DNA of 64,000 nt from Trypanosoma brucei (taxonomy: Eukaryota), in contig CH464491.1 of the NCBI GenBank assembly GCA_000002445.1, forward strand, positions 4,448,001 through 4,512,000. The letters run 5' to 3'. Shown here piece by piece: positions 31,537 to 62,862 of the stretch. How positions within the stretch are numbered: the first letter of the stretch is position 1; every line of letters starts with the position of its first letter. The notes under the pieces are model-generated. The model was not told where the DNA came from. It saw nothing but the letters and a program-made list of their open reading frames with translations, and did no database searches. The position numbers and the translations under genes were made by a program.

Positions 31537-34110
31537 CTATGAAGATGATGTCTTCATGAGATGAAGGTAGTACGGGTGATTCTCGTGTGAATCGTTTAAA
31601 AACGCGAATCCCTTTACCGTCTTAAACCGCTTTTCTGCATTCTCTCGGCCTAACCTCTTCGCTAAGTTGACAAACTCCTTAATTGTTTCCACTTCAGCAT
31701 CGGATGGGACTTTAAGCGACTCTAAGGCTTCGCGTCTCGGTCGCTTTAAGGAACAACCACTTTCCTCTCGTTTTCTGAGAGACCGACCACAGTTACACAA
31801 CCCAAGAAAAGAAACCGTTCTCCCCATAAGGGAGCCAAGTTCCATCGCATCCGAAGGTGATGGATTATCACCTATACAGTTGTCAAGCCACATACCTGTG
31901 CGTGCATCACCGGAGCCGCGTGTCATACGTTTAAATAATGGAGACTCTAACAGGGCTAGGGGTATTGACAGAAGTGGCGTCTTTCCAATCTCCTGAGCAC
32001 ACTCCAGAAAGACAGCATTGTTCCACAACGCTGTATGAAGAATAACGTGGCTGGCTATCAAGGGATATGAAACATCCAAAGGGCATTGTAACACTTTCCC
32101 TCCAAAATGTATTTCACATAGCTCATGGTGGGAAGGGTAACAATAAATATTCACGGGCGACTTCTGCGGTCCGCACATATCCGTGCCAGGAGATGCTTGA
32201 TCAAACCAACCTCGACAAGAAGTTGATATCATTCTCGTTGATTGCCTTGAAAGTGTTGTCCTTTTCCCCGTTGTGCAACAAAGAAAAAGTTCAACGCGCG
32301 AAACACTGTCATAATATTTTGGGATAGAAGAAAGTGCCCGAACGAGGGTCTCGTCCCCCATGCTCAGGTTCTCAGTGAAAACAATTTGGTATCTCGAACA
32401 GAATCGGTTTATCGCATCCCTCACCCATGAAGTAAACTTGTGAGAATTGCAAATTAGCTTTTCCGCAACTGCCTTGGGTTGTCTCAGAGCGTGACACCAA
32501 AAAATACACTTTACGTCGAAAGGCGATAACTCAGGAAAACTGCTATCATACGGTAAACGGAAGCGATATGAAAGCGCCCGCCCGATGACACTCAACTGGT
32601 ACGACGGCAACCCGTCACTGTTACGCAACTGCGACAGTAGTCCGAATGAGCACATAGCACTCATGACTTCGTCAAAAAACAAAGACGCGTCCATAGTAGC
32701 AAAGAAACTCTCCGGTATGCGTAAAACTGGGCCTGTATCTTCCTTCCTACTTTCAAACCGAAAGCGTCTAAACAGCCATAACACAACATTCATCGCATCT
32801 TGAAGGCAGTCATTACTAACACGTTCCGTGTCAACGAAGTTATTCTCGCTGCTACAATGGCCCGGATACGGTACATAGATTGTGTGGGGAAGTCGGTGAA
32901 AAAGTGCCCGAATTATGTCCAGATCCTCTCCCCTATTTGACTCACCGAAAACAAGAAACTTTATATCCATATAACCAAAGCAACATTCGTGATGCGGTCT
33001 CAGAAACTCCCTTTCAATTTTCTTCTTGGAACAAAAAACCGTCAACGGTACACCATTGGCACGAGCTGCTAAAAGTTCAGGGAAGTGGTCTAAACTCGCC
33101 GCGATTGACATGGGCGACGAAGTGTAGCTATCGTGTAGGCATTGCTCCAACATGCTAACCAACGAATCCTCTTCAGGGATTATCAGCAATATGCACGAAG
33201 GGTTACTGTTTACACATTCCACTCCGGTGTCACACAATTCTTCGTGGCAGTTTGTAACAATTTCGGTCATTTTTTCGAGCCATGCCTCCTGGTTCGCAGT
33301 CGCAAACGAGTCTGTGAAGCAGTTCTCCATATTATTGGTCGATCCGGTGCTGGTATCCAGCTTGTTAACGACGCAAACTTTAAGTTTGCTTTCAATGAAC
33401 AGATAAATGTCATCTACAGTGGTACTCCGGACACAATCTTTAGAGAATTTTAATATTACCTTCACGTGACTTAGTCTCTCCTGGATACGATCGTTAGGGA
33501 ACGACGCAAAGTGATGGAGAAGCGATGAAATCGCTAACGCCCAAATGGAAAACATAAAACTCCCGTACGGAGCCCCCATGTGAAAATAAATATCAACGTC
33601 TGTCAAAACATACACGACATCATCGTTATCAGTGCCACCCAGAAGAAAAATAAGAAGTGACTGCCACATATGATCGATACCTTTAAGGTCTAGTGTTACG
33701 AAAATGCAGTGGGAGATCCTGCTCGCCTCCTCCGTTCTGTCACGACCCACCTCCTGTGACGATTCATTCAACTCAATAGCTATATAGCAACCGCCAGTGC
33801 AATCGTTACAGGCAATCCGATCCGCAGGAGACGCACAATGTAGGTATGGAATCAAGTCCATTATCCCAATGGGATCACCTGTGCTCGGGTTACCTCTCCT
33901 ATTAATTGTTCCTCTTTCCCCTGAAAGCAAATTGTGGAAACGAGTATTCTTGTCGGTATAATACGCCTCGCTGTCAATCCTTGACATCATCGATTGAGGG
34001 ATGCGGTGTAGCCTCGAAGATGTGAGCGCATCAAAAAAGGCACTGCATTCCAGTGGAAGACAGTAAGGAATATCACCGAAATAACCCGAAGCGACTTCGT
34101 TTAAATTCAT
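31537..34110 (-). CDS. Large conserved hypothetical protein (857 aa). It is the first gene of the minus-strand unit.
   Basis: Uninterrupted 2.6 kb ORF. Upstream of it at 34.1-34.6 kb lie a (GT)n tract and pyrimidine-rich sequence. Confidence 0.5.
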   Translation of the reverse strand: MNLNEVASGYFGDIPYCLPLECSAFFDALTSSRLHRIPQSMMSRIDSEAYYTDKNTRFHNLLSGERGTINRRGNPSTGDPIGIMDLIPYLHCASPADRIACNDCTGGCYIAIELNESSQEVGRDRTEEASRISHCIFVTLDLKGIDHMWQSLLIFLLGGTDNDDVVYVLTDVDIYFHMGAPYGSFMFSIWALAISSLLHHFASFPNDRIQERLSHVKVILKFSKDCVRSTTVDDIYLFIESKLKVCVVNKLDTSTGSTNNMENCFTDSFATANQEAWLEKMTEIVTNCHEELCDTGVECVNSNPSCILLIIPEEDSLVSMLEQCLHDSYTSSPMSIAASLDHFPELLAARANGVPLTVFCSKKKIEREFLRPHHECCFGYMDIKFLVFGESNRGEDLDIIRALFHRLPHTIYVPYPGHCSSENNFVDTERVSNDCLQDAMNVVLWLFRRFRFESRKEDTGPVLRIPESFFATMDASLFFDEVMSAMCSFGLLSQLRNSDGLPSYQLSVIGRALSYRFRLPYDSSFPELSPFDVKCIFWCHALRQPKAVAEKLICNSHKFTSWVRDAINRFCSRYQIVFTENLSMGDETLVRALSSIPKYYDSVSRVELFLCCTTGKRTTLSRQSTRMISTSCRGWFDQASPGTDMCGPQKSPVNIYCYPSHHELCEIHFGGKVLQCPLDVSYPLIASHVILHTALWNNAVFLECAQEIGKTPLLSIPLALLESPLFKRMTRGSGDARTGMWLDNCIGDNPSPSDAMELGSLMGRTVSFLGLCNCGRSLRKREESGCSLKRPRREALESLKVPSDAEVETIKEFVNLAKRLGRENAEKRFKTVKGFAFLNDSHENHPYYLHLMKTSSS

Positions 34111-34546
34111 CTACCGCCAGTACTGAAATAGTGAAAGGGAGAACTTAAGAACGAAGTTAAAACAAAGATAAAACCACATATGTCACAGATTCATGGGAGA
34201 ATGCAAATTAGGTCACATTAACCTCCGCATATTTTTTTTGTGCTTTGGTTAAACATTGATCCCTCCCCCTATGCAACCACCACACCTCGGTAGATCAGAG
34301 GGACGGCAGAATGTAGAAGCAGACAATTTGGGTGAAATCAAACCACCCTCTAAAAAGTCCTGAAAGACCACCGCAGCCGACCAACACATCAGGTACTTCA
34401 CAACTTTTTCTTTAATTAACACGTTTAATTGTCGTTGTTGTTATTGCTGCTGGCGTCAACACAGCTCCAATAGGTACCTTTGCGGTTAAACATGGTCTAT
34501 GTTTCGCTTTGTTTTTTGCTTTCAACAAAACAAATTCGTTATTAGC

Positions 34547-34572
34547 GTGTGTGTGTGTGTGTGTGTGTGTGT
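34547..34572. promoter_or_regulatory. (GT)13 dinucleotide tract about 440 bp upstream of the first minus-strand gene. GT-rich tracts mark divergent transcription start regions in T. brucei.
   Basis: gtgtgtgtgtgtgtgtgtgtgtgtgt is seen directly. It sits at the edge of a 9.6 kb gene-free strand-switch region. Confidence 0.3.
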
Positions 34573-35847
34573 ATTTGTTTTCATATGGTCGGTCCCTGTT
34601 GATAAGGCTACATCGTTAAGCAGGGGAACAATGCTGCAAGCAGCACTTTACATGTACGAAAACGTTCCAACGCTTACACAGATACATACAAATAAAGAAA
34701 AAAGAAACCATCACAGAGGAATAACCCAACAGCATGTCACGCCCCAAAGCACAGGCACCCCGTCCCTGCCTTTTGATAAGTGAAAATGAACAAAGTTAAG
34801 AACGAGTATGGGAAGACGTCGGCACACAACATGGCAAAGCGGGAACCGGCCGTTGCACCGCTCGAACACATATGCGGCAGACGTCCACAATATCACGTCA
34901 TCACCGACGTACAAAACGAGGTCAGCGGCCGTGTGGCAGCCGCCCGCCGCGCAAGGCCGGCACAGACACGGCCAAAAAGTCCGGGCGGACGCAAGCACCC
35001 ACCTGCGAAAACCAAAGAGTCGGAAGGACACGCTCCCTCGCTCTTTCTTCCCCCCTCCCCCTTCGGTTCGACAGCGGCCCTCCGCTGGCAGCCGCGCGCC
35101 TCCGGACCACGGACGGCTTCTCCCGTAGAAAACTGTGGAATCTCACATCCCACCCCCACGTTAAAGCAAATTCCTTCTCTGTTGTGCGCACAGATCACAC
35201 ACACACCTTCCACATTTTCCTCGGCCGAAAATGCTGGCCGGGATTTCTGAGGGCCCTTGACCCACAGCGGCGGCACACTCGGCCAAGAAGTGCAAAGGAA
35301 GGGAGATGCAACGCGCAATAAATCGCTCTTTTCCCCCACACTCGTGCGGCACCACGCCTGCCTACCGCTTGCGTCGACGCGCCAGTCGCCGAACCATTGC
35401 GGCCATCTGGGATATGCGCAGGTGGTGGTGAGTCGGGCACTGGCATCGATGTCGAAGGGTTGGGGTGGCGTAGTCGGCGCGTTCAAGCTGATCTGGAGGA
35501 GCAACCTTGTACCTACAGACGTCTTCGGTGAGAAAGAGCGGCTAGTCGCTGTGGGGGACCCGTCGCCTCTACGCGAGGAAGTTTGGAATCCGGCACCTGG
35601 CCACTCCTTGCCGCCTCGTACCCGATATGGGGAAAATTGGCTGTTATGCTCTGCCCGCGGAACCAGCCGGTACGGGTTGTGTGGGTCTTCGGAACCTCGG
35701 GCAGTGTGAAGCTTGATTCGGATGCGCCCAGAAGCCCATGGAAACAGTACAGATCCGAACCTAGGCCTAGTCGCCGATTTCTTTTACGGAAGCCAGAGTA
35801 TTGTGGGAGGTCTTTTTCATTTCCGTTCGTTTCGAAGGCAAGCATTT

Positions 35848-35862
35848 GGGGGGGGGGGGGGG
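35848..35862. repeat. G15 homopolymer inside a ~1.1 kb GC-rich island (34.8-35.9 kb). All six frames are open there, with no coherent coding signal.
   Basis: gggggggggggggggg at 35848-35862. Overlapping track ORFs occur on both strands at 34780-35940. Confidence 0.6.
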
Positions 35863-38513
35863 AAGAGATATCAGTTTTTTCCCCCATCACCGATGCAGTG
35901 CGCTGAATATCTTTGAGTTGGTTTTTAACGTTGACCTTCATTTCTGAGGTTCAAGAGCGGTAGCGACCTGGGACTCTTAGTAGATTTCTGTGTTACGTTC
36001 CATTTCCGGTACCGGTTCTCCCGGTACGTGAAGCCGGCTGGGGGATTATGTATTTTAGATGCAACAAGATTCGGAACCCTATATATTTTTTCTAAAATTA
36101 ATCATTCATGGGGAGAGATTGCTGCATTTTCTCCCTTCTTTAATTGGGTGAGAACACATAAAAAGTCATCAGGTCGTGCGACATTTTTTAACAAGTTATG
36201 TCTGACCGGTCACTACAAAGCAAGGTGGAGACTTGTGGCTCTTTCGAGCATACCCACGGCTACGCATTGGTAATGAGGGGTGAATACTAGCAAAGAGATT
36301 AGACATAAACCGCAGGGGAGTTCACCGTTAAGATTGTGCCGGCATGAATGTAACGCGTAGGACGCCACGCCGCTGTACGGACGATGCACGTGACTGTTAG
36401 GGGCTTTGAAAGAGATGTTTGCATCCTGAAACAGATTTCACGGCGAAAGAAAAAGAACTTCTTTTGTTAACATGCAAATTTACTTCGACACACTTGCTTC
36501 TGTGGTTAGTCGAAAGTGTGTGCTCTCAGGATTTAAGCAACACACATCATGTCACTGGTTGCTGCAATGTGGTCATAGCATTTGCATTTGCGACAAACGT
36601 ACTGAACAAAGAAATGCGCAGTGGTAGCGAAGAATTTACTTTTTGTCCATACCATGCTCAACTGTGCGTTCCGAAGTTTTTATACTTTCGTCATTACGCG
36701 ACGATGTGTCTCCATCATATCTAACGTCTCCCCCCTTTACACACTTGTGACAAGGAGGAAGAGCCGGCCAAGCCCCCAGCATGCGCACAAGGAAACCAAC
36801 TACTACTAAACAACGCATCGTGGACAAGCATGACAACAGTTCTCCGGACGAGGTGAGAAATATGGAAAGATTAAATTTATGAGTCGTGACTTATACACAG
36901 ACCTCGATAGTCGCAATGTCATTGTTTACTATTGTTGCATCCAATTTAGTAACATCACCTTTCTGTGGTTTATAGGCCGAGTGCTCTAGGCATAACAGAG
37001 GAGAACTTTATGTCCCTTAGAACACATTGTGGCCTCAGCTGACTTTCACTATTTAAAAACCTTCACTGCAGGAGGCATCTGTGTTTGCCGCGCGGATCGG
37101 CACTTCGCTGTGTCAACCCTCTTGATCACCGGAGCTTGGCACCGATTTCCCCATTGACCGGAAGCAACCTCCTGGATCTTCATTAGAAAGTAAGATATGG
37201 GTTGGCTGTCCCCAACATACGTTATGGGGGTGGGTCTCTGAAAGATTCGGAGTGCCACGCGGTGCCGCCCGAACATTCGTAAATGCAGATTTTACCACGA
37301 CTTCCGAACCAACTTCTCATCGCCCCTTTATTTGTATTCCCCTCTAGACAAGGAGTGGGTTCTTCAAAGGAATCGTATTGCGATTGATTCAGTCCCATTG
37401 CAACGTTGCGGGGCAGTTGCGTGAGAGGTCCTTCTCAGACCGCATGTCCCTGCCCACACAACGTTTGCTGGAAGAAATGTTTGTGAGGTACCCTAGGGGA
37501 ACATAGCCACCCAACTACTACTGCCCACACGCACAAACTCTATGTACAGTGCCGCCGCCGTGCTGGATACTCTTTAATCCATATACTGGAAGACTTTTTT
37601 TTTTTTAATGGTAGGGTTGTTATGCGCATGCGCCACTCTCACCGTAGATTGGTGCAGTACTTGGTCAGCGAGCTGATGGTGCGGTTAAAGTCCTTGACGT
37701 CATTTTTATCTGTTTAATCAACTTCCGGTAACATACCGTAATTTTTGAAGTACTTCTCTCTTGTGTTTGGTGGAAAATGCACTGTAGCTGGTGTCTGATG
37801 TAGGCACAGTCATTTCCGTAATACGCAGTGAGAACACACTTTTTACGAGAGGTGGTTGAAACCGACACGAGTTACCAACATAGTGCCATCAAACGGTCCT
37901 TCCTTTCGTGTTAATGTCAGTACAAATGCGAACTCCATCGCTACCAACGAGGGAACAAACAACACATAGATAACCCTTCGAACCGTGCCCGAGGTGACGC
38001 TCTGCTTATATTTTGGACCACAACATAAAGGCGGATGTGATGCCGCTGTGGCTTATGACGAGGTAAGCGATCAGGTCGCGTAGTGTTGTCAACGCTTCGT
38101 GTATCCTACAAAGCGACGTAACATAGCGCCCGAATCGTCACCACCATCAGTGGGAAACAAAGCAGCTGTTGGAAAAGTATAAGTCATTCTGGAGGTGTTG
38201 TGAACTCCCGTTGAAACCGAGTCAGGAACCATGAGTGGGAATGGACGCGAAAAGCAAAATTTTATGCACATTTTAGCCGAGCGTGGTCGTAAAACTATAT
38301 CACCTGGAATCGGAGATTCCACTGTCATAAAGGTGGATGTTGTCCAGTACATGTTGTTGAAACCTCGTGAACACTCGTCTTTGGTATTGTTGGGCCTTGT
38401 TGTAGAAGCAAGACAGCTGGGTCTATGACAGCCGGTTGTCTCAAGGCAATTTGAGCGGTTGAACACTGAAAGTCTCTGATGGTAGACTGTCTAACTCGAC
38501 TTCACTCACGGGA

Positions 38514-38953
38514 ATGCTTCGACTGAAGAAGCTTCAAATCAGGGGCAACCTCGACAACAGCAACGGCGCTGGGGAAATATTTCGTATTGAAATGCTGAAA
38601 GAGATGGTGCCGACGTATAAAGAGGTGGGAATAATTGGAGAGGTGCGCCTCTCCCCGAACCCCACGATTCACAACTTGGAACAGACATCAGCAAATGACG
38701 ACTTCATAAAGTAACTTTCCGTATGGAAGAAACTATATGAAAGTTGACACTATCTGTGTCCCTAAAACTGGATAATGTCGAACAGCTGTCAAAGATTACA
38801 ACACTAAAGGGGTTGAGCCTTTCATGGTGCACTAATATTATACATGGGTGGGAAAGCAATGATAAACTTCCACAGCTCCGAGTTCTTTATTTGGAAGGGG
38901 GCGGCAAATATGCTGGGGGTGCAACCTATGAGAGGTATCAGCAACATGTTTAA
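38514..38953 (+). pseudogene. Degenerate leucine-rich repeat protein (LRRP/ESAG8-like) gene fragment.
   Basis: Two adjacent short ORFs encode LRR-like text: LKKLQIRGNLDN, LSKITTLKGLSLSWCTNIIHGWESNDKLPQLRVLYLEG. This is the L..L..LxLS.C..I pattern of trypanosome LRRP/ESAG8. They are broken by stops. Confidence 0.3.
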
Positions 38954-41920
38954 ATGTTACAGTGAGGGTAAGTGGGGCATACACAAAACTGACCGCGCGG
39001 AATTTGCCTTCCTGTGCTGTTATTATTTTTCCATTATCCCTCTTAACATGGTATGCGATCTCCTGCACCACGGAAGGAAACAACATATGCTACTGGGGTA
39101 AATGCCGACGCCTCAGAGGAGTATATCTTCTGCAGAGCTCAGCACAGGATCTGCAGACCCCCACGGCAGCGAAGGAGGCTGGCCGTCACACAGCAGCAGC
39201 CGTCTGCTCCTAAACGTTGTGGTAGGGCACGGAAGATTCATAAGACTAGCCACTGTTTGACTGACAAGAGCTTGAATGCGACGAGAAATGCTCCCGAGGT
39301 GCGCACGTCGCTGTGAGAAAAGTGATGCCAAAAGATTATTGCAACTCGCTGGTGATGGCACCAGCCCGATGCCTCAATTGTTTTACTGGAGTTTGTTTGG
39401 CAACGGGTGGCACTGGGAAAGAGCCACTGAATGCGTCTTTATGACACACAGACACGTTGCTGACGAGAAGGAAGCGGAAGCACTACCGAGTTTTCGTTTG
39501 GTAACACTTTGGATTAGTACATGATTCCAGTTGGCATAAGCGCTGGACCTCCAGAGGCGTGTTGGGGCCATGGTCATGACTAAGCGCACTGAGGGACAAA
39601 GCGTAGCAATGGTAGTAGGTCGGGAACAAAACGTCGATTGAGACTCCGTTAAGGATTGGTTAGTTGATCGGGACAGGAGGACAAGCAATGACGAACACCA
39701 CTGTTTTGCTTGTTGGTACAGAGAAACGCGACAACTAGCACAATATTCCAGGTTGGACTGCAGAACAAATTGGAAATTAGCAAAAAAAAAATGGCCGAGT
39801 GGCTGAATCAAATTACAAAGAGTGGCAGCCCAACTGCGTCGCAGAAAGGAGTAACGATGAACGGGAGGCAGAATGTTGTAATACAAAAGCAAGAACAGAA
39901 CGGGAAGCAGGCAATTAAAGCGCATCCGGGTCCAACAGCAAAGATCGTAGAGCCATGTCAATGAGGGTGCTAGAAGCCGAGAAAGACGTGCTGAAAAGGG
40001 GTGTTTCGGACAACCACGACCGTCTTCAAGAGAAATTTGAAGTGTGTGTTATCCGTCAGCATGTAATGAGGGGGGGCTGTTTCGCGATTTCCCGATCACA
40101 CGAGAGGAGTTGAATTTACGTGATGTTTCTGACCAGTCGTAACCGCGTCTTTGTGATCGCTGGTTTCCACGGCCTCTTTCAACTGATTTTTTTATTGTGT
40201 AGCCCACCGCAGTTTAATGGATTTTTTGTTGGAATCCATTGCACGTGCTATGGTGCGCTATGTCGTGGCTTGTGCTTTGTTATGTTTAGTTGGCGTTGTT
40301 GTTGTTGTTGTTCTTGTTCATAGGCTTCTTTCATGGCATGCAGTGACCTCGCACATTTGGTCTCAGATTTCATCCGTAGTAGTTCATCCTTTCGTTTCGA
40401 TAACCGAGTATTCCTTTGTTGTTGTTTTTTTTTTGAACGCTTTTACTTCTCATTTACTGTGTATTGCTGATCCAGCTCCCGCATGTCACTACACAGCTGC
40501 TCCGTAGCACCCCTCAGCTTTGACTTATACGCACGAACAACCCTTCCCTGTTGTCCTGCTGTTACAGTCACTGGGCATACAGAACGAAACAGCTTCTTAA
40601 CTCCACGCAAAATATTTGTTAGCTGTAAGTGCCCTCTGTCAAAGGGGACACAGACACAGTAATAACAGGCACTTCTTCGTTCGCTGCATAACCGGTTATG
40701 CGATGTCGTTGCGTTCCTGTTTGACGCTGCAAGAACGATTCCCTGTGGGGTTTTCCGATTGGTCACCTCATTAACGGTAACAGCGCGTGTGTCATGGACC
40801 GCAGTACCTGGACGTATTCGGAAAGGTCGTGGTAACGTCCTTGGCGCCCCACTTCATTTTTTACCGCTTTTCTTATGCATATCATCGCTTTCGGTGAATC
40901 GCGAACTGTTAGTGTACTTCTTGGAGATCGGTTAAGACCCATAGCTGTCCAGCAGGTCGTTTTGCTGCGTTCGGTGCCGAGATTTGCTTGGCAGGGATCA
41001 TTTTTCCAAAATGCAATACATAGGCTCACACACAGGTCCCGGTGATCGGCCTCTACAACCAATAACCTGCGACTGCTGAACTTCCTTGGAAAGTCTTCCG
41101 TATGCACCGTTAGCATCTCATATTTGCTTTTACTTTCGTAAGCGCTGAAAACAGAGCGATTTTCATTGGTGGTCTGCTCTGTAGCGCTTGCCTGCCAGGG
41201 AAGTTGAGATGACAAAATTAAATAGAGGTCCACATAGGTTTGGTATCCTTCACGCGATTCTTCAAGGATGTGTTGTTCCTTTCGTCTGCGGAGTGACGAC
41301 GGGAAAAGCGGAACTTGCTGCTGGAGAAACGTTGCAGTACGACACGTAAACTATTGTTTTTGCGAAATTCATAAATATGATTTCCACAAGGAGACAGGGA
41401 GTGCATCGTGTTGTGCTATGCAAAGGCGACAGGGCAATTATAAAAAACGTGCTGTCGCAACCAGTCAGCTTCCATCAATTTAACAGCGATGCAATAAGTG
41501 GATCTTGACTACCCCAGAGATGCGTATTGCGGTAAGGGGAACGTCACCCCCCCCCCCCGTACATCATTTTAACCGGTAGGGACGAGTAGTCTCATACCTT
41601 ACCTACAGTTGGAGGAGCTTTAAGCCGAAAATTTTCGACTTTTTTGAGGGTAGAAGCAAGCTCCCCAGGTTTCCCTCAAAAGCAGAAAGAGCATCCATCC
41701 TCGCTTTGATACACCGCATTGGGTGTTTTCCGTTTCTCGCTCCTTGGGCATACAGAGTGGCGGTTCCCCCGATGCTATCCTTTCCCCCCCCCCCCGCAAA
41801 AAAAAAAAAAAAATCTTTTGGGTTGCCCTTTCGGGCCCGCTCCGCCGCGGTAAACCTTTTACCGGCCGAAAACCCCGGGCAAAATGTTTTCCCTGACTGG
41901 GTGGCGGACCCCCGATCTTN

Positions 41921-42019
41921 NNNNNNNNNNNNNNNNNNNNNNNNNNNNNNNNNNNNNNNNNNNNNNNNNNNNNNNNNNNNNNNNNNNNNNNNNNNNNNNN
42001 NNNNNNNNNNNNNNNNNNN
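41921..42019. other. Scaffold gap (N run). The flanking sequence at 41540-41920 has long homopolymers (C14, C12, A16) typical of low-quality read ends.
   Basis: Ns are seen directly. Track ORFs contain X runs. Confidence 0.95.
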
Positions 42020-42812
42020 TGACAATTGCGGCAGGACGATGAGCAGAAGTAACAACGCGACTGGAGCTCTCAATATCACGGGAAGTACGTCCATGGCGAC
42101 ACGACACACAGCTCCTCCCGTCGGAAGGGAATGTTCCCCGCCACTCGGTGCGAGTGAGGCATTGCGGTCGCTCAAGTGAAGCATATTCATCGCAGTGTCT
42201 TTGATAGTCTACGTGTAAAAGTGGTTGTCACACTGGAACAAATGAAAGGGAGGGGTTGGGCAAGAGTTGTTAGGTGAAACTGGGAACCACGTAACGCCAA
42301 GAACGTGATGCCCATATCGAGGGGAAAAAATATAAACGGTTGCACGCAACAAGCCATATTAAGATTTAAGGACGCCAACACACGCATCGTTCCATCAGAG
42401 CCAAACACACCAGTAACGTAGGCGCGAAACTGCGCTTGTTGTGTCAGAGGCGGCGGTCACAATGCACAAGACCACCCCACAACAGTACAGAACTCCCAAG
42501 GTATGCGCCGCGCGCGGTGGAGTGGACCATCGATAGGTAAAACAACAATGTACCATTAAGAGGTCAACGGTTCCTCCAATCACGGCGGATGTGCCGCCCC
42601 TTTGCCACTAATTGATTGGAGGAACGGGGGCGTATTTTTCGCGACACACGACCACTGCAAAGCGGCTGGAGACTTGACACAATCCGAAGGGCGCGTCAGC
42701 TGCGTCGCAACTGTGTGCACGCTTCTATACCCCTGGCATCGGCGACAAAGTATCCGCAGCCACAATAGCCACCAAAGAACCGCCTCTCCTTCCAGCTTAG
42801 ACATAGTAGGTG
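42020..42812. repeat. Left arm of an inverted duplication. It is the reverse complement of 43116-43908, i.e. the adenylate cyclase 5' flank plus its first ~170 nt of coding sequence.
   Basis: Track ORFs 42395-42583(-) and 43345-43533(+) are identical, as are 42187-42408(-) and 43520-43741(+). ORF 41603-42190(-) begins MNMLHLSDRNASLAPSGGEH, identical to the cyclase N-terminus. Nucleotide reverse-complement identity was checked by eye across the arm ends. Confidence 0.85.
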
Positions 42813-43115
42813 TCCGCCACACACACACACACAATCTCTTTTGTGTTTGCTCTTTTCGTGCCCCGCTCCGCGCGGGTAAACCACTTTCAGCGGCCGGAGA
42901 ACTCCCGTGCGAAAATGTTTTCTCACCTGACTCGGTGTGTGCTGACACTCCGAGTCACTTCGCAGGTAAGGGAGTCATACGCCCTCTGGAACGGGTGAAC
43001 CAGTTCCAGTAGGATAGCACTATCCTTGATCAATGGCACCGCGTAAATGCTGCATCACTACCGAAAGCAAGTAAGAAGGCATATGACCCCGTTTCGCGCC
43101 GGTTCGTCCACCCGA

Positions 43116-43908
43116 CACCTACTATGTCTAAGCTGGAAGGAGAGGCGGTTCTTTGGTGGCTATTGTGGCTGCGGATACTTTGTCGCCGATGCCAGGGGTA
43201 TAGAAGCGTGCACACAGTTGCGACGCAGCTGACGCGCCCTTCGGATTGTGTCAAGTCTCCAGCCGCTTTGCAGTGGTCGTGTGTCGCGAAAAATACGCCC
43301 CCGTTCCTCCAATCAATTAGTGGCAAAGGGGCGGCACATCCGCCGTGATTGGAGGAACCGTTGACCTCTTAATGGTACATTGTTGTTTTACCTATCGATG
43401 GTCCACTCCACCGCGCGCGGCGCATACCTTGGGAGTTCTGTACTGTTGTGGGGTGGTCTTGTGCATTGTGACCGCCGCCTCTGACACAACAAGCGCAGTT
43501 TCGCGCCTACGTTACTGGTGTGTTTGGCTCTGATGGAACGATGCGTGTGTTGGCGTCCTTAAATCTTAATATGGCTTGTTGCGTGCAACCGTTTATATTT
43601 TTTCCCCTCGATATGGGCATCACGTTCTTGGCGTTACGTGGTTCCCAGTTTCACCTAACAACTCTTGCCCAACCCCTCCCTTTCATTTGTTCCAGTGTGA
43701 CAACCACTTTTACACGTAGACTATCAAAGACACTGCGATGAATATGCTTCACTTGAGCGACCGCAATGCCTCACTCGCACCGAGTGGCGGGGAACATTCC
43801 CTTCCGACGGGAGGAGCTGTGTGTCGTGTCGCCATGGACGTACTTCCCGTGATATTGAGAGCTCCAGTCGCGTTGTTACTTCTGCTCATCGTCCTGCCGC
43901 AATTGTCA
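43116..43908. repeat. Right arm of the inverted duplication. The spacer between arms is 42813-43115, ~303 bp.
   Basis: As for the left arm. Arm boundaries: gacatagtaggtg (42800-42812) and cacctactatgtc (43116-43128). Confidence 0.85.
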
Positions 43909-46900
43909 GTGGGCGCCGAGGCTAATGCGACAGTCAAGGTTCTCTCCGCCGCGTGGAACTCGTACATGCCGCAGGAGTATGTGACCGCGATCAATGCTGG
44001 CTTCAGTGCCTCACTAGAGTCACGACAATGGACTGTGGCTGGAAGCGTGAAAGTTGAGGTAGTTTATCCAGAGCGGTACGAAACACTACCCGAAGATTTC
44101 ATTAAAGAGCAGTTGGAATTGGAAACGGACCAGAATAAGATTGTTATAGTGTATGGACCCCTCGGTGACAAAAGCGTAATATACTCGATCCCGTATCTGG
44201 TGAATCACAGCGTAGTGGCCTTAGGGTTGATGACCGGCTCCGGGGAGGTGCGGCGGTGGAATCCGTACCTTTACTTTCTGCGTGCCGACCCCGCTGCTGA
44301 AACATTGGCTCTCATTCGGTATGCTCTATGCCAGTTGCGCGTGCTGCGCTTGGGTTTTATGTACCTTCAGGGTGTTCATTATGGCGACGAGGAGTATGCA
44401 TTGACAGTGAACGTGATGTCTCAGATGGGTTATGAGCTGCATGGTGTGTTCACCGTGATGAGTCCAGACGGTGAGCCTGCTCCTGATGATGAGTTCAAAG
44501 AGGCGTTCGAGCGTTTCGCCGCCGCCCTTCCTCAGGCCATCATTGTCTTTGGTGCGCCAGAAAAGGATACTGCGAAGTTCTTGATGATGATGGTAGCGGA
44601 GGAGCGCGTTGCTCGGTCTTATATTCTTGGTCCATCATCCGTCCAGGTGTCACTTGCAGAAATGTGGCGACTCGCTCTGGAAGCTGCAGGGGCCTCATTC
44701 GCGCCCGGGCAGCTACTTTTCACAGGCACCAATCCGCTTGCGAAGGACAGCCAGTACATAGCAATCAAGCGTTTTCAAGGAGTTATGAGTGAATACCTGA
44801 AAGCTCACGTCGGCGAAACCAACATCACTGAAACAGATTATTTCCTGACCCACGATCCTGAGGGAGAGTTGATGGTGTATGGGTGGATTGCTGGGGAGGT
44901 ATTGACCCAGGCACTTAGTAGTCTTGAATGGCTCAAGGACCGCGCTACGTTTGTCAGGTCGCTATACAGCCAACGGCGCTACGTCATCAATGACATTGTG
45001 ATCGGTGATTATGGCGGTACGTGTGAGGGGGAGGCGGCCAAGCATGGCGCCACCTGTGAGTGTAACCAAGGCAGTAAGGCGGTGTATGTGAAAGAGGTGT
45101 TGGAGGATGGCCGGACGACGACGATGGCGAGTGGATTCACGGTGGTGAAAGCTTCGCAGTGCTATGCTGAATCTTCGGAGCTTCACGGGCCACTGAATGG
45201 ACTCGCCGTTTTCATGGAAGACGACGACACCGCGTCGAAGGCAGCTGCGCTGTGGCACAAGGGGGCCTCCCATCTTGTCGGCAAGGGTGATTTGGGACAC
45301 TCGGACAGGTTCTTTCTGCACGCATTTAATACTACCATAGCTGAGGCAGCGAACGATCTTCGGCATGAACAAGGTGAAAGAATCGTAACCGCTGTGTTTG
45401 GCCCCGTGACCGAGGCGATGTTGGACACGCCGAATATAACCTTTATCGATCCCCTGGAACTCAAACCACGGCTGAATAAGTTCAGAAGGAATGTGATTCA
45501 TCTCTCGCCCACCCTGGAACAACAACTTTACGTTCTTTCATCGTACCTCGCAGGCGACGGGGTCGGCACTGTTGATGCCGTGATCTGCAGCAACGAAGCG
45601 GATGGGATTGCAGATTTTCTGCGGAGGTCACTAACTGAGTTCGGTGTCTCGCTACGTTCCGCTGTCATACGTGAGGATGGGGAAGGTGTTGGTAAATACC
45701 TTCCGATGAGTGGGATCGTGTTTGTCATTGGTCTTTCCGTTCCAGATGTGAGGGAAATCGCGAGGAAACTTGAGGAACGTAACGATTTGCGTGTGATTGT
45801 TCTCTTCGCGGAGTTTTCGTTACTGTATGATCTGTTTACTTCGACCCTCAACAACACCGCAGGCGCCGCGCGTCTTGTGTTTGCCACCAGCTTGCCACAT
45901 TGGGGTGATACTGAAACCTCATCGAAGACTACTCAACTGTTCCATGATGTCGAAAAAGACTCACGATTGTGGACACCCCTATCACTTCTGGCATTCGCAA
46001 CCGGTCGATTGATGCGGGCAATACTTCTTCGTGTAGAAGAAATGAGTCCAGAAACGTTGGTAAATTTCTTCTATGCCGATTCTTCCATCATCTCTGATGA
46101 CATGCGGTACGGTGTCTTCGACGACACAAAGTGCGACGGCGCAGAGAACATTTCGGAGGGTGATTGTGCCTCGAACTATGGCGCAACGCAGATATCCGTG
46201 TGGTCTATGGCCCGTGCTCTCAACGCCTCCATTCTTCCACTTACAAATCCCATGACACCGTCAATGAGCTTCAGAGACCCTAGCGAAGGAAAACTCTCCG
46301 GGGCACCGCTGGTGGGCGTCATCATCGGTGCTACCTTTGCTTTGTTTCTTGTGGTGGCTCTGGGCGTGGTTCCATACTTTGTCCTGCGCAACACCCGTGA
46401 TAACAACAGCGCGCCAAAGGAACCCACAGAGCCTGTGACAATTGTTTTCACAGATATTGAAAGCAGCACGGCACAGTGGGCTGCCCACCCCGATGTCATG
46501 GCTGATGCTGTCGCCGCACACCACAAGTTGATCCGCGCGCTGATCTCCCAGTACGAGTGTTACGAGGTGAAGACCGTTGGGGACTCGTTCATGATCGCGA
46601 GCCGAAGTGCGTTTATGGCGGTGCAACTTGTGCGGGATCTGCAGAGGGCGTTCCTTCGCCACAACTGGGGCGCGTCCGTGTTTGACGAGTATTATTGCAG
46701 ACTTGAGCAGGACCGTGCGTTAGAAAGTGAGGGATACGTGCCGCCAACCGCACGCCTGGACCCCGACGTGTACCGAAAGTTGTGGAATGGCCTCCGAGTG
46801 CGAGTTGGTGTGCACACCGGATTGTGTGACATTCGCCACGATGAGGTGACAAAGGGTTACGACTACTATGGTCATACGTCGAACATGGCTGCCCGCACAG

Positions 46901-47499
46901 AGAGCGCTGCGAATGGTGGACAGATATTGCTGACACGTGCAACATACCTTTCGCTAAGCACAGCGGAGCGTGAGCAACTTGACGTCACTGCGCTGGGCGC
47001 CGTCCCACTGCGTGGCGTTCCCGATCCGGTGGAAATGTACCAAGTTGATGCTGTGGTCGGTCGGTCCTTCGCTGCACTGCGCCTCGACAGGGAGGTCGAT
47101 CTGGTCGCAGATAGTGGGGTAACAAACCTATCCACCAGCGACTGCGCGTCCTTATGTGAGTTGGGTCAGTCAGCACAGACGATAGTGGCAGTCATGCGCG
47201 CACTTTTCGGCACTTTTACAGCATCACAGCGGGAAAAGTTGTTAGTGCCCTTCTGCGAGCGTTGGCGTGTGACGCTACCACCCAAAACGAAGTCCGTGTG
47301 GGATGATAACTACTGTCAGGAGGTTGTGCGGCGTATAGCAGCAAAAGTGGGACACGTCGTTGACTTCACGGCTTACAACATCGCTGAGCCCCCCCTCACA
47401 ACGTCAAGCAGCTCGTCCGTCATATTCATTTCCGACGCCGCCGTGGGTTTGTGCGCAGTGGGAGAACGAAATGTCTCAACCCCAAAGGAGGAAAACTGA
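43738..47499 (+). CDS. GRESAG4: Receptor-type adenylate cyclase (trypanosome ESAG4/GRESAG4 family), 1253 aa.
   Basis: Signal peptide (LLLLLIVLPQLSVGA) and a large extracellular domain. Single TM segment LVGVIIGATFALFLVVALGVVPYFVL. Class III cyclase catalytic core VTIVFTDIESSTAQWA...YEVKTVGDSFMIAS...YDYYGHTSNMAARTES. Confidence 0.9.
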   Translation: MNMLHLSDRNASLAPSGGEHSLPTGGAVCRVAMDVLPVILRAPVALLLLLIVLPQLSVGAEANATVKVLSAAWNSYMPQEYVTAINAGFSASLESRQWTVAGSVKVEVVYPERYETLPEDFIKEQLELETDQNKIVIVYGPLGDKSVIYSIPYLVNHSVVALGLMTGSGEVRRWNPYLYFLRADPAAETLALIRYALCQLRVLRLGFMYLQGVHYGDEEYALTVNVMSQMGYELHGVFTVMSPDGEPAPDDEFKEAFERFAAALPQAIIVFGAPEKDTAKFLMMMVAEERVARSYILGPSSVQVSLAEMWRLALEAAGASFAPGQLLFTGTNPLAKDSQYIAIKRFQGVMSEYLKAHVGETNITETDYFLTHDPEGELMVYGWIAGEVLTQALSSLEWLKDRATFVRSLYSQRRYVINDIVIGDYGGTCEGEAAKHGATCECNQGSKAVYVKEVLEDGRTTTMASGFTVVKASQCYAESSELHGPLNGLAVFMEDDDTASKAAALWHKGASHLVGKGDLGHSDRFFLHAFNTTIAEAANDLRHEQGERIVTAVFGPVTEAMLDTPNITFIDPLELKPRLNKFRRNVIHLSPTLEQQLYVLSSYLAGDGVGTVDAVICSNEADGIADFLRRSLTEFGVSLRSAVIREDGEGVGKYLPMSGIVFVIGLSVPDVREIARKLEERNDLRVIVLFAEFSLLYDLFTSTLNNTAGAARLVFATSLPHWGDTETSSKTTQLFHDVEKDSRLWTPLSLLAFATGRLMRAILLRVEEMSPETLVNFFYADSSIISDDMRYGVFDDTKCDGAENISEGDCASNYGATQISVWSMARALNASILPLTNPMTPSMSFRDPSEGKLSGAPLVGVIIGATFALFLVVALGVVPYFVLRNTRDNNSAPKEPTEPVTIVFTDIESSTAQWAAHPDVMADAVAAHHKLIRALISQYECYEVKTVGDSFMIASRSAFMAVQLVRDLQRAFLRHNWGASVFDEYYCRLEQDRALESEGYVPPTARLDPDVYRKLWNGLRVRVGVHTGLCDIRHDEVTKGYDYYGHTSNMAARTESAANGGQILLTRATYLSLSTAEREQLDVTALGAVPLRGVPDPVEMYQVDAVVGRSFAALRLDREVDLVADSGVTNLSTSDCASLCELGQSAQTIVAVMRALFGTFTASQREKLLVPFCERWRVTLPPKTKSVWDDNYCQEVVRRIAAKVGHVVDFTAYNIAEPPLTTSSSSSVIFISDAAVGLCAVGERNVSTPKEEN

Positions 47500-50400
47500 G
47501 GGTCGTAGGCATGCGCCATTTTTTAATGTGACGGTAAATGTTAGCGAAAGTTCTTTTAAATTTGACTTCTTTTTTTTTTTCATTCCATGGCTTATAACCG
47601 CATGTAGACATACAGTCGTGGGCACTTTCCTTCTGGCTTCGTCACTTGAGCGCGTATATCTTACAGCTAAAATGCTTTCGTTGTTACTTTTGTTATCGTC
47701 TGGGGATATAGCATCAACACCTCTATGGAGGTTACCGTATAAGCATATTGATATGGTGACTAACCACACGCACTATATGCCCCTTTTTGATTTTTCCCGT
47801 TGGCTTTTATGAGTTTTGTTCCGGGATGAACAAGCACTACCAAAATAAATGGAAATAGTGTTTTGCCTTTAATTCTTCCCATTGGGTGTTATTATTATTA
47901 TTTTTTTCGCATATATTAAATAAAACAGTCTTTGATCGTAGACAGTTCTCAGAAACAGTGAACTTACATTATAACCACCTTTCGTATGTTGTGTTTTGTC
48001 GTAATGTTGAAAAGTCTTCCTCCGTCAAACATGAATGTCTTTCTTACTCCTCCAACGCTAATAGTGCCTACTCAATTTTGAATTGAGGCGCCTGCTCCCC
48101 CACAAGGGTCCTTGGCATGACGAAAAAAAAAAAAGCGTACGCATTGCAGTGTGTTCAACTCGTGAATTTACGAATATTCGATGTTACGCCTCTATTCTTC
48201 TCATGTTGGTTTTCTCATTCCAAGGTGGCCTGAGCATTTGTTTCCGGCCATGGCACCACGTTGCGCCCATATAAACCGCCCTCCAGAGACCCTGTTTTGC
48301 CAGCGCGCTGTGGCTCTGCGTAATGCGGCTTGACGGCTCGCTTACTTAACTGAATCCCTGCATCATTTCTCCATCCCCTTGCTTGTGTTTCCCAACCCCC
48401 TGTTGTTTTGCTGCACACTTTCCTCCCTATTTCTACATTCCACAAGGGTCCCAAGTGTGTGTATGTGTGTACGTGTATGTTGTTGTTGTTTTGGCGACAG
48501 CAATCCCAGTGCTTACGCACGCACAACTATGCTAAGAACACCCGTGGCGGGAACTCTGTCACAACAGCCACACACAAATAAAAAAAAACTCGCAACCTAG
48601 TTGAGATTATCACAGAGGCAATGTTGCCGCTTTGCCGTGGAGCATTCAGGGAGGTTCGGGGTACAGAATGTGCGGCCCTTTAACATTAATAGTAGCGAGG
48701 CGGTAGACGGAGTAGCTGAGTTGCGTGAGCCCTAAGCGCCACGGGCCCCAGCGCAGAATATACAACAGAGAGCGAAGCTGATGTATTTTTCCCTCTTGGT
48801 GATGCACAATCCGTATTCTCGTGTCGTGAACTCTTGTGACATGCGAGCGGGCGATGGTGCTTCGTGTCCTGAACCATCTCTAAAGGGCTCGGCTGGATGC
48901 TTTTGGATGTGTTTTCATCCCTCAATGCTCCGCGACAAATATCTAAACCTATTCCCCACGCTGTGTGTGTGTGGGGGGGGGGGGGAGATCAACTTGCTCT
49001 CGATTGATGTGTGAAACGGACCACTCTCGGAATGTGCACAAGCAGAGCGACGAGTCGCTGTATGAAAAAAATAAAATAAAATAACCCAAACCCGTGAAAC
49101 TGTCAACCGGATCCGCACCAGTTGAGTTTGGGAAAAGTTGGAGTTGGGCGCAACCTGCCGAGTGGCACATCGCTTTACGGGATATCGCTGCTGCATGGAG
49201 GAAAATATGATTAGTGCAACCGTCGCAACACCCGCGGCGTCAGCAACCCCGCATGGTTCGGTACGGCCACCGCCACCCGACCTTAACTGAGCCGTCGCCT
49301 TGTTTGTTTTTTTTTTTTTAGCGGGAACGCGTAAAGAGTTTGAACCCGGTGGCCTCTGAATCTGCGGGGAATTATTTCTCCCATCGATGGCGTCATAGCG
49401 AGAGCGCCAACAATAATGAGGAACTTAACAGAACGGACGTGGTGCGCACAGTGCGGAAGCCCTAATGGGAATAATCGCCGTCACGTTGGGAAGGTGACTG
49501 ACGCTGCTAAATATGAATGTGCTCAGCAGGCATTAGAGAAAATATCAGCGTGAAGTGCAGGCGTTCGCCGCCGTGTGGTATCGAATTCAAGATGTTAAGC
49601 TGAGAAAGTTGGATGACACTTCGGGCGCCGTCACCATTTTATGGGAAGAAGAGAGAGAGAGAGATCGGTGGCAATGCGTCAGAACCACAATATTACCGAG
49701 CAGTAAGGGGCGAAATGCAATGCATAAAATACATTGAACATATTAACTGATAGAACTAAAGGACATATAAAAGTGCGGAGGTAAAAAGGCATTGCTCAAC
49801 AGCATCACGTCCATTTCGCCGATGCTGAGACGCCGTCCCACCCTCAGTCTTTACATATTTCGTCACACGTGTAGCGGACTGACCCCAGCGCGTATCCAAG
49901 TGAATGTGCCGATGCGGGCGCGCGCTGTACAATAAATGCCGCGCTGACAGGAACGAATCAGAAGGTGCTGCTGGCCTTAAAGCTTCAGCACATCGCAAAT
50001 GTATAAACAATAACGCTGCGGGAGCAATGAAATGGAAGTGTAATGGAATATGCATTACGTTTTACACCTTTTCGGAAGCATATGTGCGCTGGTGGCGCAT
50101 CCTTGCTCACATTCGTCCCGCATCAAATGGGATCACTCTGAAAATAAAGAGAGATACGACCACGTTTCCGCATGGGCGTATCGGTATGGCTGTTCGACTC
50201 AACGCATCTCCGCCGAAAGCATACAAAAAAAAATAAAACGATGGAGACGCCGTATTTTCGAGTATGAACGAGTCCACGGTGGCAGCGGCGGGACCTGAAC
50301 CCACAGTGGTGGTGGTGGGGGGGGGGTGTGAGGACGTTGCTCCGTAATCATTTTCTAATGTGAAATGTAATTCGGTCACCCCTCATATGCAAAGGTGTCG

Positions 50401-51055
50401 GGTACATGTAAGGTAGCCAAACGCAATTGTGCTGCATGAATGGTGAAGAGTATTTAAAACGGTAGCTGAAGGCATTGATTTTTAAAAAAACAAAAAAAAC
50501 AGAGACCTCATCGGTGCTTTGTCTGGAGTATTGCCATTTGGAATGAAAACGGGCACATAAAAACCCCCTGTGGGGAACTTTAAATCCTAGAAAAGGGCAA
50601 TCAGAAGGTGAATGTAATGAAAGTCCACTGAGAGCGGGAGGCACTCGGGACGCAAAATGCCACCTCATGTTACCATGCCTGAGGTGTCGCTTTACCTCGA
50701 AACAGAAAGACAAGGAAACTATGACCAGGAAAAGGTGGAACCGCATCATACAAGAACCCTTCGCAAATAAGGCAGTGCTGACGGTGTGTCGGCATCAGGA
50801 GCACAGACCGAATCAAGAGCGTTACCGCAACCCAAACATAAGTGGAGCGATGGCATCAAAACAGCGTCTTGCCACTTGCAAATTGCTTGGGAGTGGAAAG
50901 GCAGACGCACACCACTGAGGGTCGAGGTTACTCAAACCCCGCACACGTGGCAAAATACACAAATGAAAAAATCATTGTCTGGTGAATGAAGTCGCTTCAG
51001 CACGTCTGGCGCACGTTCCGCGGCACTCAAAAGTTTCGTATTTGAAGCCTCAAAA

Positions 51056-51172
51056 GGTTAGGGTTAGGGAGATGTGTAAAATCAAGGCTGCAGAGGGCCC
51101 TGATCGGTTATGAAGTCGTGCCCGAAGAACCCTAACACCAACCCTAATCATAATGATCGTCTCTGTAACCCT
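51056..51172. repeat. Interstitial telomere-like hexamers in head-to-head orientation. ggttagggttaggg is followed ~60 bp later by degenerate ccctaa units (ccctaacaccaaccctaatca ... aaccctcag).
   Basis: Seen directly at 51056-51070 and 51128-51172. Confidence 0.7.
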
Positions 51173-54375: not shown

Positions 54376-54452
54376 CCCTGGCGATACCGGCCACCTCAAC
54401 GTGGTGCCAGGGTCCAGTACCCCGTATCATCGGGGGAAGCCAAGAGCCAGCA
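54376..54452 (+). promoter_or_regulatory. Pr77-like 5' signature of trypanosomatid retroposons. It is reported for L1Tc/ingi/RIME as an internal promoter-like element.
   Basis: The sequence begins CCCTGGCG and matches the remembered 77-79 nt signature. Confidence 0.6.

Positions 54453-61933: not shown

Positions 61934-62015
<82 letters not shown>

Positions 62016-62819: not shown

Positions 62820-62862
<43 letters not shown>

What the first reader, a model, noticed from the sequence alone, without database searches (positions are those of the whole stretch)
41540..43908. Inverted duplication of the adenylate cyclase 5' end flanking a scaffold gap: real palindrome or mis-assembly
An ~793-bp arm (42020-42812) is the exact reverse complement of 43116-43908 (the cyclase upstream region plus its first ~57 codons), separated by a 303-bp spacer. 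The arm starts exactly at the gap edge. The low-quality sequence left of the gap (41800-41920) is an error-laden copy, in direct orientation, of part of the spacer (…cccgctccgcgcgggtaaaccactttcagcggccgg…gaaaatgttttc…). There are two readings. (a) A genuine head-to-head partial GRESAG4 duplication, with a second, inverted cyclase copy continuing into the gap; this would be typical of recombination-prone ESAG/GRESAG loci. (b) A chimeric or fold-back assembly artefact, in which the contig left of the gap really joins at the spacer.
Basis: seen in the sequence. Interest (0 to 1): 0.6.

Follow-up and report, generated by a model that had tools for sequence, protein, structure and literature searches.

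The report
Fold-back assembly artefact beside a gap
The "palindrome" upstream of this trypanosome adenylate cyclase gene is almost certainly a chimeric contig end in the Trypanosoma brucei TREU927 chromosome 11 reference; five independent assemblies of the same locus run straight through without it, so it is an error to fix, not biology.

Summary
Bases 42020-42814 are the exact reverse complement of 43114-43908 (795 nt, 299-nt spacer). The arm starts at the first base after a 100-N gap (41920-42019). The poor sequence left of the gap is a degraded direct copy of the spacer.

The window is T. b. brucei TREU927 chromosome 11: six ORFs are 100% identical to TREU927 proteins, two of which are recorded only from TREU927. 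The gene is an ESAG4/GRESAG4-type receptor adenylate cyclase, probably AC1/ACP1 (Tb927.11.17040).

The palindrome is not supported. The T. b. gambiense DAL972 chromosome 11 assembly reads colinearly from the left contig through a poly-C/(CA)n tract into the spacer and the cyclase. So do four short-read contigs from separate sequencing runs. None carries an inverted arm.

Removing the arm, the gap and the bad read tail gives an 8,607-nt intergenic region, against 8,600 nt in DAL972. The fold-back junction lies exactly at the poly-C tract where the left contig's base-calling collapses.

Reading (b), a chimeric fold-back contig end with an unmerged overlap, is strongly favoured (about 0.9). A real TREU927-specific or heterozygous inversion cannot be formally excluded without TREU927 reads. 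Interest is low.

The parts
41784..41795 (+). Poly-C tract (C12 here; C9 in DAL972; about C11 in three of the four Logan contigs, interrupted in the fourth). These are the last reliable bases of the left contig and the true position of the join.
   Evidence: the left contig matches DAL972 and the Logan contigs exactly up to this run, then degenerates.
41796..41919 (+). Low-quality read tail. It is an error-laden direct copy of 42816-~42953, with the (CA)n miscalled as A16 and many dropped bases. It is redundant sequence.
   Evidence: 78% identity, score 95 against 20.5 +/- 2.4 for shuffles, direct orientation only; alignments.
41920..42019 (.). 100-N placeholder gap between two contigs that actually overlap. 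No sequence is missing here.
   Evidence: the repaired intergenic length is 8,607 nt against 8,600 nt in DAL972.
42020..42814 (-). Inverted arm, an exact reverse complement of 43114-43908. It is interpreted as a chimeric fold-back extension of the right contig's end and is absent from all five independent assemblies.
42815..43113 (+). The 'spacer'. It is genuine single-copy intergenic sequence, starting with CGCC(AC)n, that directly follows the poly-C tract in the real locus.
   Evidence: colinear with DAL972 and four Logan contigs.
43114..43908 (+). The genuine copy of the arm: 624 nt of cyclase 5' flank plus codons 1-57.
43738..47499 (+). Receptor-type adenylate cyclase gene (ESAG4/GRESAG4 family), 1253 aa. 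It is 100% identical to TREU927 EAN80648.1 and is probably AC1/ACP1 (Tb927.11.17040).
   Evidence: The gene name is inferred, not checked by sequence.
41603..42190 (-). Spurious 195-codon ORF. It consists of the inverted cyclase N-terminus read through the N-gap into the bad tail.
   Evidence: The 57-aa fragment is not in the protein collection.

Best explanation
The window is T. b. brucei TREU927 chromosome 11, at the border between the core and the right-hand subtelomere. The real locus is an ordinary, colinear, roughly 8.6-kb gene-poor divergent strand-switch region. It lies between a conserved 857-aa hypothetical gene (minus strand) and a receptor adenylate cyclase gene (plus strand). About 930 bp upstream of the cyclase ATG lies a C9-12 homopolymer followed by G-CC-(AC)n.

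No clean read crossed this tract in the original capillary shotgun. From the left, base-calling collapses after the poly-C, leaving a 124-nt garbage tail that is really the start of the 'spacer'. From the right, the contig end was extended by a chimeric fold-back sequence. At the poly-C/(CA)n boundary (42814/42815) it switches to the reverse complement of sequence only 299 nt away (43114 onward) and runs for 795 nt, about the length of one capillary read.

The two contig ends conflicted, so they were not merged, and a 100-N gap was placed between them.

Shown: the anatomy, the colinearity in other assemblies, the overlap of the two contigs, and the coincidence of the junction with the poly-C tract.

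Inferred: that the arm derives from a chimeric clone or read, or from an intramolecular template switch during library preparation or cloning. The exact step that produced it cannot be determined here.
For: (1) Source. Six ORFs are 100% identical to TREU927 proteins EAN80636/40/41/44/46/48. EAN80636 and EAN80644 have UniRef100 n=1 (TREU927 only), and the orthologues of EAN80644 in DAL972 and T. equiperdum are 968 aa against 1004 aa here. TREU927 chromosomes 1 and 9-11 were made by shotgun capillary sequencing (PMC2854126).

(2) DAL972 chromosome 11 (L001, no N in the locus) aligns 1-9190 to window 32711-41903 and 9073-17934 to window 42820-51672. The two window contigs therefore overlap by about 118 nt, and only 42020-42814 is extra, hitting L001 in reverse. 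DAL972 was assembled de novo from its own reads with Phrap and only then ordered against 927.

(3) Four Logan short-read contigs from separate runs (ERR7929161-64; L004, L005, L006, L009) run without a break from window 40295 or 40407 through poly-C, (CA)n and spacer to 43343. They cross both would-be breakpoints (42814/5 and 43113/4). Each aligns end to end in a single HSP at 98.7-99.0% to a repaired model made of the left contig through the poly-C plus the window from 42816.

(4) The repaired intergenic length is 8,607 nt against 8,600 nt in DAL972; the assembled length is 9,627 nt.

(5) TREU927's own left contig reads through the poly-C into the spacer in direct orientation.

(6) The arm is 100% identical to its partner, starts at the contig end, and is read-sized.

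(7) The fold-back junction coincides to the base with the poly-C tract where the left contig fails. Other assemblies also break at homopolymers nearby: three Logan contigs end at the C12 run at 41547-41558, and the T. equiperdum contig ends at the G15 run at 35848.
Against: None of the independent assemblies is shown to be TREU927. The Logan runs are unidentified, and their contigs differ from the window by 5-11 mismatches plus 15-16 gap positions over about 2 kb. A TREU927-specific or heterozygous structural variant is therefore not excluded.

The two breakpoints are only 299 nt apart. That is not expected from random ligation of unrelated fragments and points to an intramolecular event. Such an event could in principle be biological (a fold-back inversion) rather than technical.

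I could not see reads, qualities or depth. A single 795-nt read tail with zero errors would be somewhat unusual, so the arm was probably built from several reads.
Confidence: 0.9

Rival explanations
1. There is a genuine inverted partial duplication (fold-back inversion) of the cyclase 5' end in TREU927, on one homologue or in a subpopulation of the sequenced stock. It would have formed after a break or replication stall at the poly-C/(CA)n tract in the strand-switch region. The colinear left-contig tail would come from the other homologue.
For: The breakpoints are 299 nt apart, the geometry typical of intramolecular fold-back events. The junction sits at a homopolymer/microsatellite that could stall replication. 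The chromosome 11 shotgun mixed reads from both homologues (PMC2854126). Cyclase (ESAG4/GRESAG4) loci are known to be duplication-prone (own knowledge; Table 1 of PMC2854126 lists cyclase segmental duplications).
Against: It is absent from DAL972 and from four other short-read assemblies, whose contigs pass both breakpoints unbranched. There is at most 1 nt of microhomology at the junction. The arm ends exactly at a contig end, is read-sized and is 100% identical to its partner. No second junction back to unique sequence exists anywhere in the window. The same tract demonstrably wrecked sequencing from the other side.
Confidence: 0.06
2. There is a genuine, fixed head-to-head duplication in TREU927, with a second, inverted cyclase copy lying in the gap. 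It would require the spacer to be present twice.
For: Only the assembled sequence itself.
Against: The left contig joins the spacer directly in direct orientation. The assembled excess length of 1,020 nt is fully accounted for by tail (124 nt), gap (100 nt), arm (795 nt) and 1 nt, leaving the same intergenic length as DAL972. The 100-N gap is a placeholder of fixed size, as is the second gap in the window. No divergent second cyclase copy is in the window.
Confidence: 0.02
3. The sequence left of the gap (41796-41919) is a real, diverged direct repeat of the spacer, not a bad read tail.
For: 78% identity could in principle reflect an old duplication.
Against: In DAL972 and four Logan contigs the poly-C is followed directly by the clean spacer, with no diverged copy. 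The differences are mostly dropped bases, and the (CA)n is collapsed to A16. That is a base-calling failure pattern, not a substitution pattern.
Confidence: 0.02

Closest known systems
Chimeric or fold-back contig ends in shotgun assemblies: inverted chimeras from intramolecular template switching, or chimeric clones. One example is the inverted chimeras described for multiple-displacement amplification (Lasken and Stockwell 2007, recalled from memory and not checked here).
   Same: There is an exact inverted copy of nearby sequence, with the two breakpoints a few hundred bases apart. The chimera sits at a contig end next to a gap. It is absent from independent assemblies.
   Different: The TREU927 library was not MDA-amplified as far as I know. 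The step that generated the chimera (end repair, cloning in E. coli, or the assembler placing reads) is unknown. Almost no microhomology is present at the junction (1 nt).
Unmerged overlapping contigs separated by a fixed 100-N placeholder in finished or draft reference chromosomes.
   Same: The two contigs overlap by about 118-140 nt of real sequence. The gap size is the conventional 100 N, as at the second gap in the window (62103-62202).
   Different: Here the merge was blocked both by low-quality sequence after a homopolymer and by a conflicting chimeric extension. The second gap, by contrast, lies within a long (TAT)n-type simple repeat.
Genuine inverted-repeat or fold-back rearrangements in trypanosomatids, such as inverted-repeat-mediated linear amplicons in Leishmania and the palindromic cores of T. 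brucei minichromosomes (own knowledge, not checked here).
   Same: Head-to-head geometry with a short unique spacer.
   Different: Those structures are reproducible across reads and isolates and have defined outer junctions. This one is absent from five independent assemblies and has no outer junction (it ends in Ns).
ESAG4/GRESAG4 receptor adenylate cyclase family. This is the gene involved, probably AC1/ACP1 (Tb927.11.17040).
   Same: Pfam Peripla_BP_A-cyclase, Peripla_BP_A-cyclase_1 and Guanylate_cyc domains are all present. The protein is 100% identical to TREU927 EAN80648.1. It is 91% identical to a chromosome 10 paralogue, consistent with the AC1/AC2 pair.
   Different: Nothing unusual about the gene itself. 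Only its first 57 codons and 5' flank are spuriously duplicated in the assembly.

Membership tests
Assembly artefact (chimeric fold-back contig end plus unmerged overlap) | The duplicated arm abuts a contig end or gap | tested here: met
   The arm starts at 42020, the first base after the N-run 41920-42019.
Assembly artefact (chimeric fold-back contig end plus unmerged overlap) | The neighbouring contig overlaps the sequence beyond the chimeric junction, so the true join bypasses the arm | tested here: met
   41814-41915 aligns directly to 42837-42953. DAL972 positions 9073-9190 match both contig ends.
Assembly artefact (chimeric fold-back contig end plus unmerged overlap) | Independent assemblies of the same locus lack the structure | tested here: met
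   DAL972 chromosome 11 and Logan contigs from four runs are colinear.
Assembly artefact (chimeric fold-back contig end plus unmerged overlap) | Removing the arm restores the expected length and synteny | tested here: met
   8,607 nt after repair against 8,600 nt in DAL972.
Assembly artefact (chimeric fold-back contig end plus unmerged overlap) | Read-level support comes from a single clone or read only, with no 2x depth over the arm | not testable with these tools
   No TREU927 reads, qualities or depth are available.
Genuine inverted (head-to-head) duplication or palindrome | The inversion junction is reproducible in independent sequence data | tested here: not met
   Five independent assemblies cross 42814/5 and 43113/4 colinearly. 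None is known to be TREU927, so this is not decisive for a strain-private variant.
Genuine inverted (head-to-head) duplication or palindrome | The second copy continues beyond the arm, or there is an outer junction to unique sequence | not testable with these tools
   The arm runs into Ns. No other copy or junction is in the window.
Microhomology-primed fold-back (snap-back) inversion | A short inverted microhomology at the breakpoint allows the 3' end to prime on its own strand | tested here: not met
   At most 1 nt is ambiguous at the junction. The next inner bases are CGCCAC against GGGTGG.
Receptor-type adenylate cyclase (ESAG4/GRESAG4) | Extracellular periplasmic-binding-protein-like domains plus a class III cyclase catalytic domain | tested here: met
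   PF25495 (1.5e-58), PF25493 (5.6e-136), PF00211 (2e-37). Homologues are named ESAG4/GRESAG4.
AC1/ACP1 = Tb927.11.17040 | Sequence identity to the gene carrying that identifier | not tested
   Inferred from the chromosome 11 location, the 100% match to EAN80648.1 and a 91% chromosome 10 paralogue (the AC2 candidate). The mapping of the identifier to the sequence was not verified.

The most novel reading that the evidence does not exclude
TREU927 carries a real fold-back inversion on one chromosome 11 homologue or in a subclone. It would be nucleated at a poly-C/(CA)n tract inside a divergent strand-switch region (a transcription-start zone) just upstream of the AC1 cyclase. That would make this tract a natural fragile site that seeds palindromic duplication of the core/subtelomere border.
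Probability: 0.05. Interest if true: 0.5.

Novelty: not a real feature. Interest (0 to 1): 0.08.

Why it matters
This has practical value only. TREU927 is the reference genome that most T. brucei omics data are mapped to, and the affected gene is probably AC1/ACP1, a studied flagellar-tip cyclase involved in social motility (PMC8141408, PMC4534343).

The spurious exact copy of its 5' flank, likely including the 5' UTR and trans-splice acceptor region, and of its first 171 coding bases makes reads there multi-mapping. That can produce artificial coverage dips or ambiguity in RNA-seq, splice-site mapping, ChIP-seq and ribosome profiling. It creates a spurious ORF across the gap and inflates the intergenic region by about 1 kb.

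The fix is simple. Delete 41796-42815, that is, join the poly-C tract directly to G-CC-(AC)n at 42816. If the rival reading were true, the site would be a modestly interesting example of a fold-back inversion at a strand-switch region.

Tried and rejected
1. The exact look-up of the cyclase and of the 857-aa neighbour in the contig index found nothing. The TREU927 proteins P0058 and P0002 also returned no contig, so the TREU927 record itself could not be fetched.

2. T. equiperdum OVI contigs do not cover the junction. L002 stops at the G15 run at window 35848, and L003 covers only 47057-48579. An apparent second inverted repeat arose only because L002 and L003 were in one file.

3. I looked up ORFs that span the fold-back junction (42602-43012+, 42580-42948-, 42696-42926-, 42810-42998+) in the 15-billion-protein collection. 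They are absent, but so are control ORFs from the genuine sequence, so this is uninformative. The 57-aa inverted N-terminal fragment is also not an annotated protein there.

4. The ERR79291xx runs could not be identified from the literature.

5. A literature search for documented TREU927 chromosome 11 misassemblies found nothing relevant.

6. Tb11.27.0001, a cyclase segmental duplication on chromosome 11 in Table 1 of PMC2854126, is listed there as a duplication in T. b. gambiense of a single T. b. brucei locus. L001 shows one cyclase copy only, so I rejected it as relevant.

7. There are no tRNA genes in the window, and the only Rfam matches are the partial rDNA at 52.1-54.4 kb, so none lies in the strand-switch region.

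8. A microhomology-primed snap-back was considered as the mechanism, but only 1 nt of microhomology is present.
Full report
**Observation.** Reading the region and scanning for repeats confirm a perfect inverted repeat. 42020-42814 is the reverse complement of 43114-43908: 795 nt, 100% identical, 299 nt apart. A direct string comparison agrees, and one search shows it is the only long repeat in the window that involves this region. The window has two N-runs, each exactly 100 N: 41920-42019 and 62103-62202. The arm therefore begins at the first base after a gap. The right arm holds 624 nt of 5' flank and exactly the first 57 codons of a 1253-codon ORF, 43738-47499. The sequence left of the gap contains C12 and A16 runs. 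It aligns in direct orientation to the start of the spacer: 41814-41915 against 42837-42953, 92/118 identities, with differences dominated by dropped bases. The score is 95, against 20.5 +/- 2.4 for shuffles and 20 for the reverse complement.

**What the gene and the window are.** The ORF carries the two periplasmic-binding-protein-like cyclase domains and a class III cyclase catalytic domain. Its homologues are the trypanosome ESAG4/GRESAG4 receptor adenylate cyclases. It is 100% identical over 1253 aa to T. b. brucei TREU927 EAN80648.1. Five further ORFs of the window are 100% identical to TREU927 EAN80636, 80640, 80641, 80644 and 80646, all on the 5,261,801-bp chromosome 11 record. Two of these sequences are recorded only from TREU927. 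The orthologues of the 1004-aa AIR9-like protein are 968 aa in DAL972 and T. equiperdum. The window is therefore the TREU927 chromosome 11 reference. All large ORFs left of 41.3 kb are on the minus strand and those to the right are on the plus strand, so the finding lies in a divergent strand-switch region. The gene has a 91% paralogue on chromosome 10. It is probably AC1/ACP1 (Tb927.11.17040), the flagellar-tip cyclase that is knocked down together with AC2 (Tb927.10.16190) in social-motility work. I did not verify that identifier by sequence.

**Comparison with DAL972.** The orthologous protein of T. b. gambiense DAL972 gave its chromosome 11 locus (L001), which has no Ns. BLAST gave three matches:
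- L001 1-9190 matches window 32711-41903.
- L001 9073-17934 matches window 42820-51672.
- Window 42020-42814 matches only in reverse, to L001 9367-10171.

DAL972 is therefore colinear. The two TREU927 contigs overlap by about 118 nt of DAL972 sequence, and only the inverted arm is extra. The alignment shows DAL972 reading ...GATGCTATCCTTT-C9-G-CC-(AC)n-AATCTC... continuously. The TREU927 left contig follows it exactly up to the poly-C and then degenerates. The right contig follows it from 'CCGCC(AC)n' onward and is the inverted arm immediately 5' of that. DAL972 was assembled from its own capillary reads with Phrap and only afterwards ordered against 927 (PMC2854126), so it is independent sequence.

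**Comparison with short-read contigs.** A 156-aa ORF just left of the region (40763-41233, minus strand) turned out to be recorded in Logan short-read assemblies. Four contigs carry it, from four runs: ERR7929163, -62, -64 and -61 (L004, L005, L006, L009). All four run from window 40295 or 40407 through the poly-C, the (CA)n and the whole spacer to 43343. They cross both would-be breakpoints without a break. Against a repaired model (left contig through 41795 joined to 42816 onward), each aligns end to end in one HSP at 98.7-99.0%. Three further contigs stop at the other C12 run, 41547-41558, and the T. equiperdum contig stops at a G15 run at 35848. Homopolymers are evidently what breaks assemblies in this region.

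**Length check.** The assembled intergenic distance between the 857-aa gene and the cyclase is 9,627 nt. It is 8,607 nt after removing 41796-42815, and 8,600 nt in DAL972. Tail, gap and arm account for the whole excess, so nothing is missing in the 'gap'.

**Interpretation.** The best explanation is a technical one.
- TREU927 chromosome 11 was produced by shotgun capillary sequencing.
- No clean read crossed the C12/(CA)n tract.
- The left contig ends in a dephased read tail that is really the beginning of the spacer.
- The right contig end carries a read-sized (795 nt) chimeric extension. At the poly-C boundary it flips to the reverse complement of sequence 299 nt away.
- The conflicting ends could not be merged, and a conventional 100-N gap was inserted.

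The fold-back junction coincides to the base with the tract that defeated sequencing from the other side. I regard this as the strongest internal sign of an artefact. I cannot tell which step made the chimera. The closeness of the breakpoints argues for an intramolecular event (template switch or snap-back during library preparation or cloning) rather than ligation of unrelated fragments. Only 1 nt of microhomology is present.

**Rivals.** A real fold-back inversion private to TREU927, on one homologue or in a subclone, is not excluded. None of the comparison assemblies is known to be TREU927, and I had no reads. I give it about 5-6%. A fixed head-to-head duplication with a second cyclase copy in the gap is contradicted by the left contig's own read-through and by the length accounting (about 2%). 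The idea that the tail is a real diverged repeat is contradicted by the five colinear assemblies and by the error pattern (about 2%).

**Verdict.** Its only importance is as a correction to a heavily used reference, at the 5' end of a studied gene.

**Seen in passing.**
- Downstream of the cyclase there is a partial rDNA unit: 5.8S plus the first ~1.4 kb of LSU, with no SSU. It ends where a non-LTR retrotransposon ORF begins.
- The second 100-N gap lies inside a ~1.3-kb (TAT)n-type simple repeat.

Noticed in passing
window 52105-57458: There is a partial rDNA unit on the plus strand. It comprises 5.8S rRNA (52105-52273) and the 5' part of LSU rRNA (52892-54382, model positions 24-1445 of 3401), with no SSU upstream. 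The LSU match ends where a 1044-aa non-LTR retrotransposon ORF begins (54324-57458; RVT_1 plus an endonuclease domain). This looks like an rDNA fragment interrupted or truncated by an ingi/RIME-type element at the border between the chromosome 11 core and the subtelomere.
   Followed up: partly
window 61934-63228 (gap 62103-62202): The second 100-N gap lies inside a ~1.3-kb simple-repeat array, (TAT)n / GTATTAGTATTA. This is a different cause of assembly failure from the first gap.
   Followed up: partly
window 41547-41558, 41784-41795, 35848-35862: Long homopolymers (C12, C12, G15) in the gene-poor strand-switch region coincide with contig ends in three different assemblies: Logan contigs L007, L008 and L010, the TREU927 left contig, and the T. 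equiperdum OVI contig L002.
   Followed up: partly
L004, L005, L006 and L009 position 1, equivalent to window 43343: All four Logan contigs that span the junction end at exactly the same base, window 43343, about 395 nt upstream of the cyclase ATG. This may mark where the sequence becomes shared with the chromosome 10 paralogue (the AC2 locus) and the assembly graph branches. A 13-bp inverted repeat (GTTCCTCCAATCA...TGATTGGAGGAAC, about 43293-43359) also lies here.
   Followed up: no
window 24923-27937 (minus strand): The AIR9-like / leucine-rich-repeat protein is 1004 aa in TREU927 but 968 aa in DAL972 and T. equiperdum OVI. The ORF contains a 36-nt-period internal repeat (self-hits 25086-25322), so repeat copy number varies between strains.
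   Followed up: no
window 34111-43737: The strand-switch region upstream of the cyclase is about 8.6 kb once repaired and has no convincing protein-coding gene. DAL972 annotates only two small ORFs (113 and 111 aa), and no tRNA gene or Rfam family was found there.
   Followed up: partly
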